A stretch of 52,074 nucleotides of DNA from Clostridia bacterium (GTDB lineage Bacteria; Bacillota; Clostridia; Christensenellales; CAG-1252): the NCBI GenBank assembly GCA_017463565.1, contig JAFTOZ010000113.1, positions 1 through 52,074 of the forward strand, read 5' to 3'. Both the position numbers and the translations under genes were made by a program. The notes under the pieces were generated by a model, which saw nothing but the letters and a program-made list of their open reading frames with translations, ran no database searches and was not told the DNA's origin. Below, in pieces: positions 35,365-52,074 of this stretch (position 1 is the first letter of the stretch; every line of letters begins with the position of its first letter).

Positions 35365-36198
35365 ATGAGTTATGCCGACCAAGTGTTTATCGACAATATC
35401 CGCCATATTTTGGAAAATGGCACAAGCGACGAGGGTATGAACGTGCGTCCCTATTGGGCGGACGACCATTCTCCTGCGCATACGGTGAAAGCTTTTGGTA
35501 TCGTGAATCGCTACGACCTGTCGAAAGAGTTTCCTATCACCACCCTGCGCCAAACTAACTTCCGCGCGGCGGTAGACGAGATCTTGTGGATCTGGCAGAA
35601 AAAGAGCAATAACGTGCACGAGTTGGGTAGCCATATCTGGGACGCTTGGGCGGACGAGAGTGGCTCTATCGGCAAGGCGTACGGCTATCAGTTGGGCGTG
35701 AAGCACCAATATAAAGAGGGTATGTTTGACCAGGTGGACAGAGTGCTGTACGACCTGAAGCACAATCCGCAGTCTCGCCGTATTATGACGAATATCTTTG
35801 TGCATCAGGACCTGCACGAAATGGCGCTGTACCCCTGTGCTTATTCCATGACCTTTAACGTGGTGGACGGCAAGTTGAACGCTATTTTGAATCAACGCTC
35901 CAACGATATGTTGGTGGCGAATAACTGGAACGTGGTGCAGTATGCCGTACTGGTGCATATGATGGCGCAGGTGAGCGGTTTGCAGGTGGGCGAGTTGGTG
36001 CACGTGATTGCAGACGCACATATCTACGACCGCCATATCCCCATTGTGAAAGAGGTGATTGAGCGCACCCCCATGGAAGCACCTAAGTTGATTATTGATC
36101 CTAACGTGAAGGATTTCTATGACTTTACGGTGGATAGTTTCCGCCTGGAGGGATATGACGCACCCAAGTTGGGTAAGCGTCTGCCGGTAGCGGTGTAG
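35365..36198 (+). CDS. thyA: Thymidylate synthase (ThyA, Bacillus ThyA-type)
   Basis: Colinear with B. subtilis ThyA from recall: ...PAHT..., EILWIWQKKSN, NPQSRR, ALYPCAY, RSNDM, EAPKLIIDPNVKDFYDFTVDSF. SD AAGGAG. Confidence 0.95.
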   Translation: MSYADQVFIDNIRHILENGTSDEGMNVRPYWADDHSPAHTVKAFGIVNRYDLSKEFPITTLRQTNFRAAVDEILWIWQKKSNNVHELGSHIWDAWADESGSIGKAYGYQLGVKHQYKEGMFDQVDRVLYDLKHNPQSRRIMTNIFVHQDLHEMALYPCAYSMTFNVVDGKLNAILNQRSNDMLVANNWNVVQYAVLVHMMAQVSGLQVGELVHVIADAHIYDRHIPIVKEVIERTPMEAPKLIIDPNVKDFYDFTVDSFRLEGYDAPKLGKRLPVAV

Positions 36199-36543
36199 CG
36201 AGAAGTCCGCGGGGAACTTCTCGCAGTGAAATCCGTCTTTGACGGGTGAAATCCACCTGCGGTGGGTGAAATCGCTTTCGCGGTGAAATCCTGCTACGCA
36301 GGGTTGCGGTGATACGTTAATTTCATCTAAACAAATTAAAGAACAAATAAAAGAAAAGAGCAGAGCGAAGCAAGAAAGTCCGCGGGGAACTTCTCGCAGT
36401 GAAATCCGTCTTTGACGGGGGAAATCCACCTGCGGTGGGTGAAATCGCTTTCGCGGTGAAATCCTGCTACGCAGGGTTGCGGTGGTACGTTTAGTTTCAT
36501 CTGAACAAATTCAAGAATAAATAAAAGAAAAGAGCAGGAAGTT
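36198..36543. repeat. Two tandem ~173-bp units, each with GTGAAATC x4 alternating with mini-hairpins
   Basis: The unit offset is 173-174 bp (for example GTCCGC at 36205 and 36378). See the findings for hairpin coordinates. Confidence 0.9.
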
Positions 36544-36559
36544 GTCCTGCTCTTTTTGT
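36524..36559. terminator. Bidirectional terminator between thyA and the CotH gene
   Basis: Stem AGAGCAGGA (36531-36539) / TCCTGCTCT (36545-36553), flanked by an A-rich run and a T-run. Confidence 0.75.
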
Positions 36560-36622
36560 TTGCTGATTTTCATTTGCAAGTCTTTCTTGCCGAGCCTAAA
36601 GGAGAAAATCGCAAACCCTGCC

Positions 36623-48970: not shown

Positions 48971-50062
48971 TTATAGCACCTTGGACAAAAACTCGCGGAA
49001 ACGGGGCGTTTGGGGGTTAGAAAAGAGTTCTTCGGGAGTGCCTTCCTCGGTGATTTTGCCAGAGGACATAAACACGAGGCGGGTGGCGACTTCTTTGGCG
49101 AATTCCATTTCGTGGGTGACGATGATCATGGTCATTCCGCTGGCGGCTACCTCGCGAATGAGATCTAAAACCTCGCCCACCATTTCGGGGTCGAGGGCGG
49201 AGGTGGGCTCGTCGAAAAGCATGACCTTGGGCTGCATAGCTAAGGCGCGAATGATGGCGATACGCTGTTGCTGACCGCCCGAGAGGGTGGAGGGATAGCT
49301 GGCGGCCTTGTCGAGAAGGTCGATACGCGCAAGCAATTGCAGGGCACGCTCTTTTTCTTGCACTTTGATTTGTTTACTGCTCTGCCCGGAAAGGTCCACT
49401 TGCTCGATAGGTTGGGGCAGGGTGTTGCGGTCCAGGCGGCGTTGGGCCTGGCGGATAGCGTGCTCTATGCGCTGATAGCGGCGGTTGAGCTTTTTGTTGT
49501 AGGTGACCTTGCGCTTGCCGGCGGTTTCTTCTACCTTGGCGGTGGCCTCTCGCGCCTCGGCGATGGGGGCAAGGCGAGAAGTCAGTAGGTCAATACGGGC
49601 AGAAAGGTGGGGGGCAGTCTTTTGCACCTTGCGTTGGTAGTAGGCGGAAAAGAGTCGGATATGCGCGTTGTAGAGGGGCGCAAACGCATTGCGCAGGTGG
49701 CACAGGCGCAGGGCTGCTATGCGCAACTTGACGGGGGCGAGCATAATGTTTTGCAACACGGTGAGGTTGGCAAACAGGTTGAAGGATTGGAATACCATAC
49801 CGATATTCTCTCGCTGACGGTTGATATTCACCCCAAGGTCGGTGAGGTCGGTATCTCCGAAAAAGATACGGCCCGAGGTGGGGTCTTCCAAAACGTTCAG
49901 GCAACGCAAAAAAGTGGATTTGCCGCCGCCCGAGGGACCGATGATGGCAACACGCTCTCCTTCGTAGACGGTGGTGGAGATGTCGTCCAAAACCAAGAGG
50001 TCACCAAAAGATTTGGTGAGGTGGTCGATACGTAGAATGGGCTTTTTGGTTGAAGTTTCCAT
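48971..50062 (-). CDS. Polar amino-acid ABC transporter ATP-binding protein with a ~115-120 aa insertion
   Basis: Walker [11 protein letters not shown]-loop MVFQSFNLF, signature LSGGQQQR, Walker [12 protein letters not shown] and H-loop THEM. It is 363 aa, whereas I recall ~240 aa as typical. Confidence 0.9.
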
Positions 50063-51763: not shown

Positions 51764-51865
51764 ATGTTTTTGGGGTGATTTTGTATATTCTTTTATTTTT
51801 GTGTGTATATTTGCAGGTATTATGAATATTTATACAATAATTATTCAAAAAAAATAATCTATGCA

Positions 51866-51898
51866 TTAGCGTGTTATCCATAACGGAGAACACGCTAA
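51866..51898 (-). terminator. 10-bp stem hairpin, possible minus-strand terminator closing the upstream array
   Basis: TTAGCGTGTT / AACACGCTAA with a 13-nt loop. The minus-strand T8 run begins 11 nt after the stem, which is atypically far. Confidence 0.35.
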
Positions 51899-51900
51899 AC

Positions 51901-52074
51901 TAAGTTTGCCCTTTGGGCAAGTGAAGTTATCTACGATAGTGAAGTTCACTTTGTGAGTGAAGTTTCGCCTGACGGCGAAGTGATGGGCAAACTTAACTTC
52001 ACTTGTGCGTAGCACAAACTTCACTGCGTAGCAACTTCACTTTTGCGATAGCAAAAACTTCACTAACAGAAAAA
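51901..52074. repeat. Array of AGTGAAGTT (x3, plus one degenerate copy) and its complement AACTTCACT (x4) alternating with mini-hairpins, truncated by the window end
   Basis: Forward octamers GTGAAGTT are at 51921, 51939 and 51957, with a degenerate copy at 51980. Reverse octamers AACTTCAC are at 51995, 52017, 52033 and 52056. Palindromic spacers lie between them. Confidence 0.85.

What the first reader, a model, noticed from the sequence alone, without database searches (positions are those of the whole stretch)
51901..52074. Window-edge array: four GTGAAGTT-type octamers facing four complementary AACTTCAC octamers, interleaved with mini-palindromes
A(A)GTGAAGTT occurs at 51920, 51938 and 51956 (18-bp spacing), with a degenerate copy at 51979. 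Its exact reverse complement AACTTCACT occurs at 51995, 52017, 52033 and 52056. Every spacer is itself a small palindrome. The spacers are TTGCCC-TTT-GGGCAA, (T)ATC-TAC-GAT(A), (T)CAC-TTT-GTG(A), TCGCC-TGAC-GGCGA, TGTGC-GTA-GCACA, (T)GC-GTA-GC(A) and TTTGC-GATA-GCAAA. So two arrays converge on about 51985-51995. In the orientation where the constant reads AACTTCAC, the loops are GTA, GTA and GATA on the plus strand. For the left half on the minus strand they are GTCA, AAA, GTA and AAA. Across this array and the thyA array, 8 of 11 loops are G...A type by my count. The GCGTAGC core recurs, as it does on the minus strand of the thyA array. An 11-nt long-range complement exists (TAAGTTTGCCC at 51901-51911 with GGGCAAACTTA at 51985-51995). 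It competes with the first local hairpin, so alternative folds are possible. A 10-bp hairpin (51866-51898) and a T8 run on the minus strand separate the array from the ABC-operon promoter. The element is cut by the window end, so its full extent and neighbouring gene are unknown.
Basis: partly seen in the sequence, partly recalled or inferred. Interest (0 to 1): 0.7.

Follow-up and report, generated by a model that had tools for sequence, protein, structure and literature searches.

The report
Hairpin-array repeat module inside a terminator
The window-edge array is real: it is the left part of a roughly 350-base non-coding, multi-copy repeat module of uncultured gut Clostridia that sits inside a gene's terminator hairpin. 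One arm of it is what the Rfam database calls the "Gut-1 RNA" motif, so that motif may be part of a mobile-looking DNA element and not a simple small-RNA gene.

Summary
Seven exact AGTGAAGTT/AACTTCACT nonamers lie in 51920-52064 and none lie elsewhere in the 52 kb. Every spacer is a perfect mini-hairpin.

It is one polar element, not two converging arrays. A covariance model built from 25 relatives scores it 178 bits on the + strand and 64 on the - strand. About 57 such composites turned up in gut and rumen Clostridia MAGs. Each has a 5' hairpin, three left constants, four complementary right constants and a three-way complementary A/B/C set.

The left arm is a sub-threshold Rfam Gut-1 match (43.5 bits against a cut-off of 50). 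A relative in the same framework passes at 53.4 bits.

The hairpin at 51866-51898 holds the left terminal inverted repeat of a 342-416 nt framework. This framework is found at unrelated loci, twice in one genome. It is usually bracketed by a split host terminator; here the left arm of that terminator is 51848-51865.

The same framework carries cassettes with at least six different constants, and the left and right constants always co-vary. A sister strain carries a different cassette at this very locus.

I found no transposase, target duplication or empty site, and I had no RNA data. The best reading is a MITE/BIME-like fold-back module; an sRNA reading remains open.

The parts
51829..51858 (+). 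Sigma-70-like promoter candidate (TTTATA, 18 nt, AATAAT). It would start + strand transcription at about 51865, the first base of the P0 hairpin.
   Evidence: consensus scan only. Analogous own promoters lie just upstream of relatives L098, L044 and L027. Not shown to be active.
51848..51865 (.). Left arm of a host intrinsic terminator split by the module (A8 + TAATCTATGCA). On the minus strand it is the 3' arm plus the T8 tail of the terminator of the gene to the right.
   Evidence: The sister-strain contigs L197/L198 carry the matching right arm CATAGATTATTT about 390 nt away, 45 nt from the stop codon of a minus-strand gene. The arms pair in the MFE fold of either strand. Equivalent split terminators occur at 7 of 9 complete relatives.
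51866..51898 (+). P0 hairpin (TTAGCGTGTTATCC-ATAAC-GGAGAACACGCTAA). It contains the left terminal inverted repeat of the framework (about 51871-51890).
   Evidence: The inverted-repeat consensus hits at 51871 with 3 mismatches. The left end and the reverse complement of the right end match in complete relatives, 21/22 in L201.
51900..51920 (+). A segment (CTAAGTTTGCCC, a degenerate constant L0 plus the 5' arm of P1), loop TTT, and B (GGGCAA, the 3' arm of P1).
   Evidence: P1 is 5/5 pairs in at least 96% of relatives.
51920..51964 (+). Left array: three AGTGAAGTT constants (51920, 51938, 51956) with hairpins P2 (ATC-TAC-GAT) and P3 (CAC-TTT-GTG). Together with P1 this is the Rfam Gut-1-like arm.
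   Evidence: Gut-1 43.5 bits over 51897-51968; double compensatory changes in 4/4 pairs of P2 and 2/4 pairs of P3.
51964..51995 (+). P4 hairpin (TTCGCC-TGAC-GGCGAA), degenerate constant AGTGATGG, and C segment GGGCAAACTTA (51985-51995). C is complementary to A and competes with B.
   Evidence: The A:C helix is 96.4% paired in 25 relatives. It is re-created with different sequence in every cassette type.
51995..52064 (+). Right array: four AACTTCACT constants (51995, 52017, 52033, 52056), exact complements of the left constant, with hairpins P5 (TTGTGC-GTA-GCACAA), P6 (TGC-GTA-GCA) and P7 (TTTTGC-GATA-GCAAAA).
   Evidence: The family model matches 51899-52065 + at 178.4 bits.
52064..52074 (+). 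TAACAGAAAAA: the conserved junction and 5' A-run of the module's internal bidirectional terminator. The remaining roughly 150-165 nt of the module lie beyond the window and contig end.
   Evidence: Relatives L052, L088, L105, L106, L109, L114, L205 and L208 continue with AGAGAGGACA...TGTTCTCTCTTTCTG and then the conserved extension. An independent contig, L001, breaks at the same base.

Best explanation
Window 51848-52074 holds the left ~60% of a ~350-nt non-coding, multi-copy, inverted-repeat-bounded module. It is MITE/BIME-like, found in uncultured gut Clostridia, and lies inside the loop of the intrinsic terminator of the minus-strand gene to its right.

The module has two parts:
- A moderately conserved framework: the P0 hairpin holding the left inverted repeat, an internal bidirectional terminator, a ~110-nt extension and the right inverted repeat.
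- A hypervariable cassette: three left constants and four exactly complementary right constants, separated by perfect mini-hairpins of free sequence, plus an A/B/C set in which A can pair locally with B or distally with C.

Proposed mechanism (inferred): the cassette works through its fold, not its sequence. In a single strand (a transcript or ssDNA), the left constants pair with the right constants to form a ladder of short helices with the mini-hairpins as side branches. This brings the two module ends and the two halves of the host terminator together. Because the module also carries its own two-way terminator, the insertion does not disturb neighbouring genes.

Because the arms share only 8-9-bp segments, the DNA is not a long perfect palindrome. 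The repeated constants homogenise by slippage and inverted-repeat templated repair, so all copies in one module change together. Whole cassettes are also swapped between strains by recombination through the framework.

Shown: the anatomy, family membership, dispersal to unrelated loci, split terminators, co-variation of left and right constants, and the strain-level cassette swap.
Inferred: mobility, how insertion into hairpin loops happens, and any RNA-level role.
For: - **Family and polarity.** The genome scan found at least 120 stretches, and convergent pairs outnumber divergent ones 50 to 4. I parsed 45 composites, typically with 3 + 4 units. Model R1, built without the window, scores 178.4 bits on the + strand and 63.7 on the - strand. 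It recovers about 57 composites.
- **Link to Gut-1.** The window scores 43.5 bits, L106 48.2, and L207 (same framework) 53.4, above the gathering cut-off of 50.
- **Dispersal.** Ten species carry modules 88-96% identical to the window's, with no flank homology. L105 and L106 are two copies in one genome.
- **Inverted-repeat ends and size.** Modules are 342-416 nt. The ends match 21/22 in L201 and about 15-17/20 elsewhere. Paired ends are always 320-400 nt apart.
- **Split host terminators.** Exact flanking inverted repeats of 11-20 bp with A/T runs occur in L105, L034, L065, L052, L106 and L078. Only 20 of 1480 non-cognate control pairs reach 11 bp. L201 has a 17-bp one, and L210 and L197 also have them.
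- **Fold-back.** The MFE of the window's + strand pairs GUGAAGUU with AACUUCAC (-81 kcal/mol, z -7.5). The complete L197 module closes through the host arms on either strand (z -9.6 and -9.2).
- **Sequence-free structure.** 86.5% of 155 distinct spacers are hairpins. Covariation is 0.257 against 0.105 for shuffles, reached by 0 of 500 shuffles.
- **Interchangeable constants.** The framework carries GTGAAGTT, RTGAATTG, TCGATAT, GTGAAATCC, GTGATGTT and GTTATGA. Each has its exact complement on the right and its own A/B/C set.
- **Strain-level swap.** L197 and L198 share the window's flank and P0 but carry the RTGAATTG cassette.
- **No wobble asymmetry.** G.U and A.C mismatches are about equal (roughly 24 to 20), as expected for DNA-level palindromes.
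Against: - I found no empty site, no target-site duplication and no autonomous copy or transposase. None lay between neighbouring copies. There was no match on plasmids or phages, and no composite among 75 viral stretches.
- One subgroup stays at the same locus in four species, downstream of a RumA/RlmCD-like gene, with diverged hairpins. Its coding sequence runs into P0. That looks like long vertical inheritance under structural constraint, as expected for a functional RNA.
- In 30 of 40 loci the upstream gene is co-directional and ends at P0.
- Some copies have their own promoter and terminator, and the window has a promoter-like site placed correctly.
- The tandem G.A mismatches are strand-specific, 27 against 0.
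- Only about a fifth of the non-framework composites show a split terminator.
- Rfam's curators classed Gut-1 as an sRNA because of covariation (PMC2864571).
Confidence: 0.55

Rival explanations
1. It is a structured small RNA or 3'-UTR-derived RNA gene, as Rfam files Gut-1. It would be transcribed on the + strand from about 51865 and ended by the internal terminator. The single-stranded constants or the ladder would act in trans, for example as a multivalent binding platform or sponge for a protein or for complementary arrays on other RNAs. On this reading the framework's 'inverted repeats' are simply the closing helix of the RNA.
For: - It matches Rfam Gut-1.
- A promoter-like site lies at 51829-51858, and relatives L098, L044 and L027 have their own promoters.
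- A terminator follows the array.
- The upstream gene is co-directional in 30 of 40 loci, with the coding sequence abutting P0.
- Compensatory changes occur in the stems.
- The tandem G.A motifs are strand-specific.
- The element is retained at the same locus in four species.
Against: - G.U is not preferred over A.C.
- The constant differs between copies in one genome, so no single binding partner fits.
- There is no conserved promoter upstream of P0 among the 10 closest relatives.
- In some loci P0 is itself a complete terminator with no room for a promoter.
- The module sits in either orientation relative to host genes: W and L083 are antisense.
- Split host terminators bracket the module.
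Confidence: 0.22
2. It is a cis-acting transcription insulator or mRNA 3'-end stabiliser kept by the host. A very stable two-way structured block plus terminator would shield the ABC-operon promoter from read-through of the upstream gene, and would protect the 3' ends of neighbouring transcripts from exonucleases, as shown for REP elements in E. coli.
For: - 33 of 35 scored contexts place it at the 3' end of at least one gene.
- It carries an internal bidirectional terminator.
- Both strands fold about equally well.
- The near-perfect palindromic hairpins work on both strands.
Against: - An ordinary terminator was already present at the site, namely the split outer stem, so there was no need for an added 350 nt.
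- This reading does not explain the complementary constants, the A/B/C design or the inverted-repeat ends.
- It overlaps with the best explanation as a possible host-level effect and is not a true alternative to it.
Confidence: 0.12
3. It is two separate convergent Gut-1-type sRNA genes, one on each strand, that happen to abut. This is the most literal reading of the first-stage note.
For: - The minus strand of the right half reads AGUGAAGUU-hairpin four times.
- L076 does hold two convergent single arrays, each with its own terminator, about 160 nt apart.
Against: - There is no room for terminators or promoters between or beside the halves.
- The family model is strongly polar, 178 against 64 bits.
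- cmscan lists no Gut-1 match for the minus strand of the right half.
- The A:C complement ties the two halves together.
- The right-half tandem G.A mismatches read on the + strand.
- The fixed 3 + 4 stoichiometry is kept across cassette types.
Confidence: 0.03
4. It is a double-stranded DNA protein-binding array, with the octamers acting as iterons, operators or subterminal transposase sites in inverted orientation.
For: - The constants have an 18-22-bp period and a direct-plus-inverted arrangement.
- The 3 + 4 layout recalls the ends of Tn7-type elements (from my own knowledge, not tested).
Against: - The same framework and inverted-repeat ends carry at least six unrelated octamers, so the octamers cannot be the recognition sites of the framework's mobilising or binding protein.
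- The spacers are under hairpin constraint, which a duplex-binding site does not need.
- The octamer is not enriched elsewhere in the window.
Confidence: 0.03

Closest known systems
Gut-1 RNA motif (Rfam RF01706; Weinberg et al. 2010, PMC2864571)
   Same: It has the same unit design: short variable hairpins joined by a constant UGAA-type linker, with a long 5' hairpin. It comes from the same habitat and the same gut Clostridia. The window's left arm aligns end to end with the model. A cassette in the same framework passes the curated cut-off (L207, 53.4 bits). Weinberg's own flanked alignment already contains a GUGAUAUU copy followed by four AAUAUCAC units.
   Different: The constant here is GUGAAGUU, not GUGAAAU, and the score of 43.5 is below the gathering score of 50. 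The Rfam model covers only three hairpins. It does not describe the complementary right array, the A/B/C complement, the inverted-repeat-bounded framework, the split host terminators or the interchangeability of the constant. Function is unknown in both cases.
REP / BIME elements and REPINs of proteobacteria
   Same: Both are multi-copy extragenic palindromic units clustered in opposite orientations at the 3' ends of genes. Both vary between strains, break short-read assemblies, are transcribed as part of neighbouring mRNAs, and are targets for IS insertion. An IS3-family orfA sits inside one module in L209.
   Different: REP units have a conserved sequence within a genome and a conserved 5' tetranucleotide. 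Here the hairpins are free in sequence and only the linkers are constant. Those linkers also differ from copy to copy. I did not look for an association with a RAYT transposase.
Bacterial MITEs with modular or fold-back structure (Correia elements of Neisseria; BOX and RUP of Streptococcus pneumoniae)
   Same: Both are small (under 600 bp), non-coding, bounded by inverted repeats, dispersed at unrelated intergenic sites and able to fold into long hairpins. Both are co-transcribed with neighbours. BOX elements are likewise modular, with a variable number of internal units.
   Different: I saw no target-site duplication and found no parent IS. Insertion is into, or directly after, terminator hairpins. 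The interior is an array of variable hairpins with co-varying left and right constants, which I do not know from any described MITE (from my own knowledge).
IS1397 / ISKpn1 insertion into loops of palindromic units; group IIC introns after terminator hairpins
   Same: Both use hairpins, in loops or directly 3' of terminator stems, as landing sites. This matches the two placements seen here: split terminators and an intact terminator immediately followed by the element (L120, L043, L035).
   Different: Those are autonomous elements that encode their own enzyme. This module encodes nothing and shows no intron or IS3 hallmarks.
Integron attC sites
   Same: Both are conserved in structure but variable in sequence, act as folded single strands and lie at the 3' ends of genes. 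In L083, arrays separate successive co-oriented accessory genes.
   Different: It has no RYYYAAC / GTTRRRY core sites, no single long imperfect hairpin with extrahelical bases, and no integrase nearby in the loci I inspected.

Membership tests
Rfam Gut-1 (RF01706) | Full-length match to the covariance model: three consecutive hairpins joined by UGAAAU-type linkers. | tested here: met
   51897-51968 on the + strand aligns to model positions 1-77 of 77, E 1.8e-7 in a local search.
Rfam Gut-1 (RF01706) | Bit score at or above the curated gathering score (50 bits). | tested here: not met
   43.5 bits. It was not listed in the gathering-threshold scan of the window. The closest relatives score 46.8-48.2.
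Rfam Gut-1 (RF01706) | Homology to sequences that do pass the threshold. | tested here: met
   L207 carries a GTGAAATCC cassette in the same P0/terminator/extension framework and scores 53.4 bits. The window's own thyA copies score 60.2 and 52.2.
Rfam Gut-1 (RF01706) | Expressed as a stable non-coding RNA. | not testable with these tools
   No transcript data were available. The only evidence is a promoter-like site and the terminator seen in relatives.
   178.4 bits, E 8e-43, model positions 1-172 of 172 on the + strand against 63.7 bits on the - strand. The model was built without the window. The window ranks 4th of about 57 members.
MITE (miniature inverted-repeat transposable element) | Terminal inverted repeats. 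| tested here: inconclusive
   Complete relatives have imperfect 20-22-bp inverted-repeat ends (L201 21/22; others about 15-17/20). The window holds only the left one (51871-51890, 3 mismatches to consensus), because the right end lies beyond the window.
MITE (miniature inverted-repeat transposable element) | Small, non-coding, multi-copy, at non-homologous sites. | tested here: met
   Modules are 342-416 nt. Ten species carry modules 88-96% identical with unrelated flanks. Two copies lie in one genome (L105/L106). The only ORF across it is a 52-aa mechanical one.
MITE (miniature inverted-repeat transposable element) | Target-site duplication. | tested here: not met
   The junctions of L052, L105, L106, L109, L197 and L201 show residual loop bases but no direct duplication.
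MITE (miniature inverted-repeat transposable element) | Cognate autonomous element or transposase with the same ends. | tested here: not met
   None was found in about 1.8 Mb of held DNA, where inverted-repeat pairs are always 320-400 nt apart. There was no transposase between neighbouring copies and no plasmid or phage match. The search space was small, so this is weak negative evidence.
MITE (miniature inverted-repeat transposable element) | Presence/absence polymorphism (an empty site). | tested here: inconclusive
   A scan for the window's flank in metagenomes found nothing. The sister strain shows cassette replacement, not an empty site. The 70%-identity orthologous locus L199 has a plain terminator but no alignable flank.
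REP / BIME | A conserved ~35-nt imperfect palindrome unit repeated through the genome. | tested here: not met
   The hairpins differ in every unit (155 distinct spacers). Only the 8-9-nt linkers are constant, and they differ between copies.
REP / BIME | Association with a RAYT (Y1 HUH) transposase. | not tested
   I did not screen the genomes for RAYT genes.
Integron attC | RYYYAAC and GTTRRRY core sites at the two ends of one imperfect hairpin. | tested here: not met
   Direct reading of the sequence: the constants are GTGAAGTT/AACTTCAC and neither core is present.
CRISPR array | Direct repeats of at least ~23 nt with non-palindromic spacers of ~30 nt. | tested here: not met
   The repeats are 8-9 nt, the spacers are 9-16-nt palindromes, and complementary repeats lie on the same strand.

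The most novel reading that the evidence does not exclude
The module may be a previously undescribed kind of mobile or recombining element that targets hairpins. It would be non-autonomous, landing in the loops of terminator hairpins or directly after them. It would carry a hypervariable cassette whose left and right octamers act as private, mutually orthogonal self-pairing addresses. A genome could then hold many copies, each folding only on itself into a ladder of four-way junctions. On this reading, what Rfam lists as the Gut-1 sRNA is one arm of that element. The concerted switching of seven or eight octamer copies at once (GTGAAGTT to GTGATGTT, RTGAATTG, TCGATAT and others) would reflect an active homogenising or cassette-exchange process and not slow drift.
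Probability: 0.2. Interest if true: 0.85.

Novelty: new variant of a known kind. Interest (0 to 1): 0.64.

Why it matters
- **Re-reading of Gut-1.** Gut-1 has been in Rfam since 2010 as an orphan 'sRNA' of unknown function. Here its hits are one arm of a larger, polar element bounded by inverted repeats. That element disperses to unrelated loci, sits in split terminators and swaps its interior between strains.
- **What experiments should ask.** Mobility and cis effects on termination become as important as trans-acting RNA function.
- **A caution on covariation.** Covariation alone can make palindromic DNA repeats look like RNA genes.
- **Assembly breaks.** Metagenome assemblies of these Clostridia break at such sites. 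Two independent contigs end at the same base here.
- **Strain typing.** The cassette polymorphism could be used as a strain marker.
- **An unusual design.** A fold specified by interchangeable complementary octamers plus free hairpins would be of interest for RNA and DNA structural biology if it proves functional.

Tried and rejected
- **Coding sequence.** The only ORF over the array is a 52-aa mechanical ORF on the minus strand. Unit spacing is not kept in multiples of three in relatives. Rejected.
- **Phage or plasmid origin.** The octamer pattern gave 75 viral stretches, but they are ordinary tandem or coding repeats, and none met my composite definition. L146, filed as a viral contig, does hold two composite-like copies with a longer centre. 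blastn of complete modules against PLSDB and INPHARED found nothing.
- **Extending the contig directly.** The exact protein look-up returned a contig that ends at the same base. A metagenome scan for the 45-nt left flank found nothing. Extension came instead from sister-strain contigs and from relatives.
- **Conserved neighbour gene or transposase.** All-against-all BLAST of flanking ORFs gave only one syntenic group. Pfam scans of genes lying between neighbouring copies gave RecO, Mrr, HTH-T5orf172, DUF3885, Mn-catalase and unknowns, with no transposase.
- **Uptake-sequence or genome-wide signal.** The octamer is not enriched outside the arrays.
- **Other known RNA families.** There was no other Rfam hit for the array or for the conserved extension.
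- **Literature.** Nothing beyond the 2010 description of Gut-1 was found.
- **G.U against A.C strand test.** It came out balanced and so did not settle which strand, or whether RNA, matters.
- **Loop-sequence preference.** The G...A preference is not conserved.
Full report
**1. The observation**

The sequence is as described. On the + strand, AGTGAAGTT occurs at 51920, 51938 and 51956. Its exact complement AACTTCACT occurs at 51995, 52017, 52033 and 52056. All seven exact copies in the 52-kb window lie within these 145 nt; about 0.4 would be expected by chance on both strands of the whole window.

Every spacer is a flush perfect hairpin (for the window's own spacers). The complement TAAGTTTGCCC / GGGCAAACTTA, the hairpin at 51866-51898 and the A8 run at 51848-51855 are also present. 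A de novo scan of the window for 'constant plus hairpin' chains finds only this site and the thyA site at 36226-36289.

**2. What it matches**

At curated thresholds Rfam reports only two hits in the window. Both are Gut-1 RNA (RF01706), at 36224-36294 and 36397-36467, which is the thyA array. With relaxed thresholds, the left half of the edge array (51897-51968, +) aligns to the whole Gut-1 model at 43.5 bits. That is below the gathering score of 50.

Gut-1 was described in 2010 from human-gut metagenomes with 43 examples, called a likely non-coding RNA, and given no function (PMC2864571). I found no later work on it.

**3. A widespread polar composite**

Most are gut or rumen Clostridia MAGs: Oscillospiraceae, Acutalibacteraceae, Christensenellaceae, Ca. 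Scatosoma and Faecousia. In these stretches a + array followed by a - array occurs 50 times, and the opposite order 4 times.

Reading the stretches shows one polar design:
- a long hairpin P0 ending 0-2 nt before the element;
- the A segment aCTAAGTTTGCC(C);
- P1, whose 3' arm is B;
- three GTGAAGTT units;
- P4;
- the C segment GGGCAAACTTA;
- four AACTTCAC units.

A covariance model built from 25 of them, without the window, scores window 51899-52065 at 178.4 bits (E 8e-43) on the + strand and 63.7 bits on the - strand. It recovers about 57 composites in the held loci.

Stems co-vary. On the 25-sequence alignment, 93.6% of cells pair, against 84.8% for shuffles. The covariation score is 0.257 against 0.105, reached by 0 of 500 shuffles. 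All four P2 pairs and two P3 pairs show double changes. Of 155 distinct spacers, 86.5% are flush hairpins, against 2.3% of shuffles.

**4. One strand or two**

The right-half hairpins carry 27 tandem G.A/A.G mismatches on the strand that reads AACUUCAC, and no C.U equivalents. The A:C complement ties the halves together. The family model is strongly polar. The feature is therefore one unit on the + strand of the window, not two convergent Gut-1 genes.

However, G.U and A.C mismatches are about equally rare over all helices, roughly 24 to 20. The usual signature of RNA-level selection is therefore missing. The stems behave like near-perfect DNA palindromes.

**5. Context**

In canonical orientation the left neighbour is co-directional in 30 of 40 loci and often ends at P0. 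The right neighbour can be in either orientation. In one syntenic group (L028, L032, L063, L102), a RumA/RlmCD-like coding sequence runs through the 5' arm of P0 and stops at the TAA inside the A segment.

Some copies have their own promoter directly upstream: L098, L044, and the single array L027. The window has a promoter-like site that would start transcription at P0. In L035, L043 and L120, P0 is a complete bidirectional terminator after a tRNA gene, and the element follows at once.

**6. The window's subfamily is a module bounded by inverted repeats**

Ten species carry elements 88-96% identical to the window's over about 210 nt, but their 3-kb flanks share no homology. L105 and L106 are two such copies in one genome.

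Homology runs on past the window end. It continues through a bidirectional terminator and about 110 further conserved nt, ending in AATTCTCCGCTAAGAACATCACCC. The reverse complement of that end matches the 5' arm plus loop of P0. Complete modules are 342-416 nt with imperfect 20-22-bp inverted-repeat ends, 21/22 in L201. The end pairs are always 320-400 nt apart.

**7. Split host terminators**

The modules are bracketed by locus-specific inverted repeats flanked by an A-run and a T-run:
- L105: 20 bp
- L201: 17 bp
- L034: 15 bp
- L065: 14 bp
- L052: 12 bp
- L106: 11 bp
- L078: 11 bp
- L210 and L197 also have them.

Only 20 of 1480 non-cognate flank pairs reach 11 bp. The few residual loop bases lie mostly on the right side, and there is no target duplication.

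For the window, the left arm is aaaaaaaaTAATCTATGca (51848-51865). The sister-strain contigs L197 and L198 show the right arm CATAGATTATTT about 390 nt away, 45 nt from the stop codon of a minus-strand gene. The complete L197 module folds on either strand with the host arms paired.

**8. The constant is interchangeable**

L197 and L198 share the window's flank and P0, and their neighbouring gene is 98% identical. Yet they carry a cassette with constants (A/G)TGAATTG and CAATTCAT, and their own A/B/C set: AATGAATTGCAACC, CGGTTGC and GGTTGCAATTCA.

A metagenome scan for the conserved extension found 15 more framework copies. Their cassettes use:
- GTGAAGTT/AACTTCAC
- TCGATAT/ATATCGA
- GTGAAATCC/GATTTCAT (L207, which passes Rfam Gut-1 at 53.4 bits)
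- GTGATGTT/AACATCAC
- GTTATGA/TCATAAC
- a 1 + 1 GTGATAT/ATATCAC form
- a copy with no array.

Weinberg's own flanked alignment holds GUGAUAUU x3 followed by AAUAUCAC x4. Other loci hold GCTAAAT/ATTTAGC. The roughly 3 + 4 stoichiometry and the A/B/C logic persist throughout.

L211 shares hairpins P2, P3, P4 and P7 with L032 but has GTGATGTT where L032 has GTGAAGTT. The compensating change is present in all its right units. So left and right constants co-vary as a set, and the actual octamer does not matter.

**9. Mechanism**

The MFE fold of the window's + strand pairs the left constants with the right constants. This gives a ladder with the mini-hairpins as branches (-81 kcal/mol, z -7.5). The minus strand does the same.

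The data fit a fold-back module. Its interior is constrained only to pair with itself, and it carries its own two-way terminator. It sits where it does least harm, and it evolves by concerted homogenisation and cassette exchange. That it is or was mobile is inferred from five things: dispersal, two copies in one genome, the inverted-repeat ends, the split terminators and the assembly breaks.

It is not proven. I found no empty site, no duplication and no transposase. The syntenic subgroup, the gene-end orientation bias, the own promoters and the strand-specific G.A motifs keep a functional-RNA reading alive.

**10. Comparison and verdict**

It works most like REP/BIME clusters and fold-back MITEs (Correia, BOX). 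Its landing sites recall IS1397 or group IIC introns. It fails several defining tests for each of these, as listed in the membership table.

By the curated score it is not a member of Rfam Gut-1, but it is clearly homologous to sequences that are. I rate it a new variant of known kinds, with real interest. It re-frames an orphan Rfam family and shows an unusual design: free hairpins plus interchangeable complementary linkers.

Noticed in passing
window 36198-36560: The thyA-downstream array is a tandem duplication of a ~173-nt unit. Each unit has a long P0 hairpin and four GTGAAATCC-hairpin units, and each passes Rfam Gut-1 (60.2 and 52.2 bits). The array starts right after the thyA stop codon and ends in a bidirectional terminator at about 36526-36560. 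It lacks a full complementary right array; only a single degenerate AATTTCAT follows each copy.
   Followed up: partly
beyond the window end; L052 2600-2700, L105, L106, L109, L114, L197 228-330: A conserved ~110-nt extension follows the module's terminator (GGGCTTAGCCC hairpin, TTGACnnGTCAA palindrome, ATGCGATGCT, then AATTCTCCGCTAAGAACATCACCC). It has no Rfam match. On the minus strand it would form a ~130-nt RNA ending at the strong side of the shared terminator. It also exists without any array (L214) or with a 1 + 1 array (L213).
   Followed up: partly
L209 1-640: An IS3-family orfA (MSKRGKQKKYSKELKLEAIHAYL...) lies inside a framework module, with the junction in the loop region of the module's internal terminator. 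This recalls IS1397-type insertion into palindromic units.
   Followed up: no
L049 2490-2960: A giant array of more than 20 ATATCAC units cycles through three hairpins (gttgcgcagcaac / gaagcccctcgtggcctcc / gcttgcatagcaagc). This shows that the arrays can amplify in blocks of units.
   Followed up: no
L083 690-3930: Four arrays (ATGAATT units, some followed by GTGAAGT units) separate successive co-oriented small genes (unknowns, DUF3885, Mn-catalase). The layout resembles gene cassettes separated by structured sites. Here the arrays are antisense to the genes.
   Followed up: partly
window 48971-50062 (-): The ABC ATPase of the amino-acid transporter operon is 363 aa. It appears to carry a ~100-aa charged insertion between the Walker A/Q-loop region and the LSGGQ signature. 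The 70%-identity ortholog locus L199 has a 359-aa version.
   Followed up: no
window 52074 / L001 position 1: The window and an independent ENA contig (ERZ27256818 k141_384998) end at exactly the same base, just where the module's terminator begins. L055 and L029 also break inside the module. These repeats are assembly breakpoints in short-read metagenomes.
   Followed up: yes
L199 1-150: The 70%-identity syntenic locus has no module next to the ABC promoter. It has a canonical GTGAAAT Gut-1 array about 650 nt upstream on the operon strand, and a plain intrinsic terminator at the position equivalent to the split one.
   Followed up: partly
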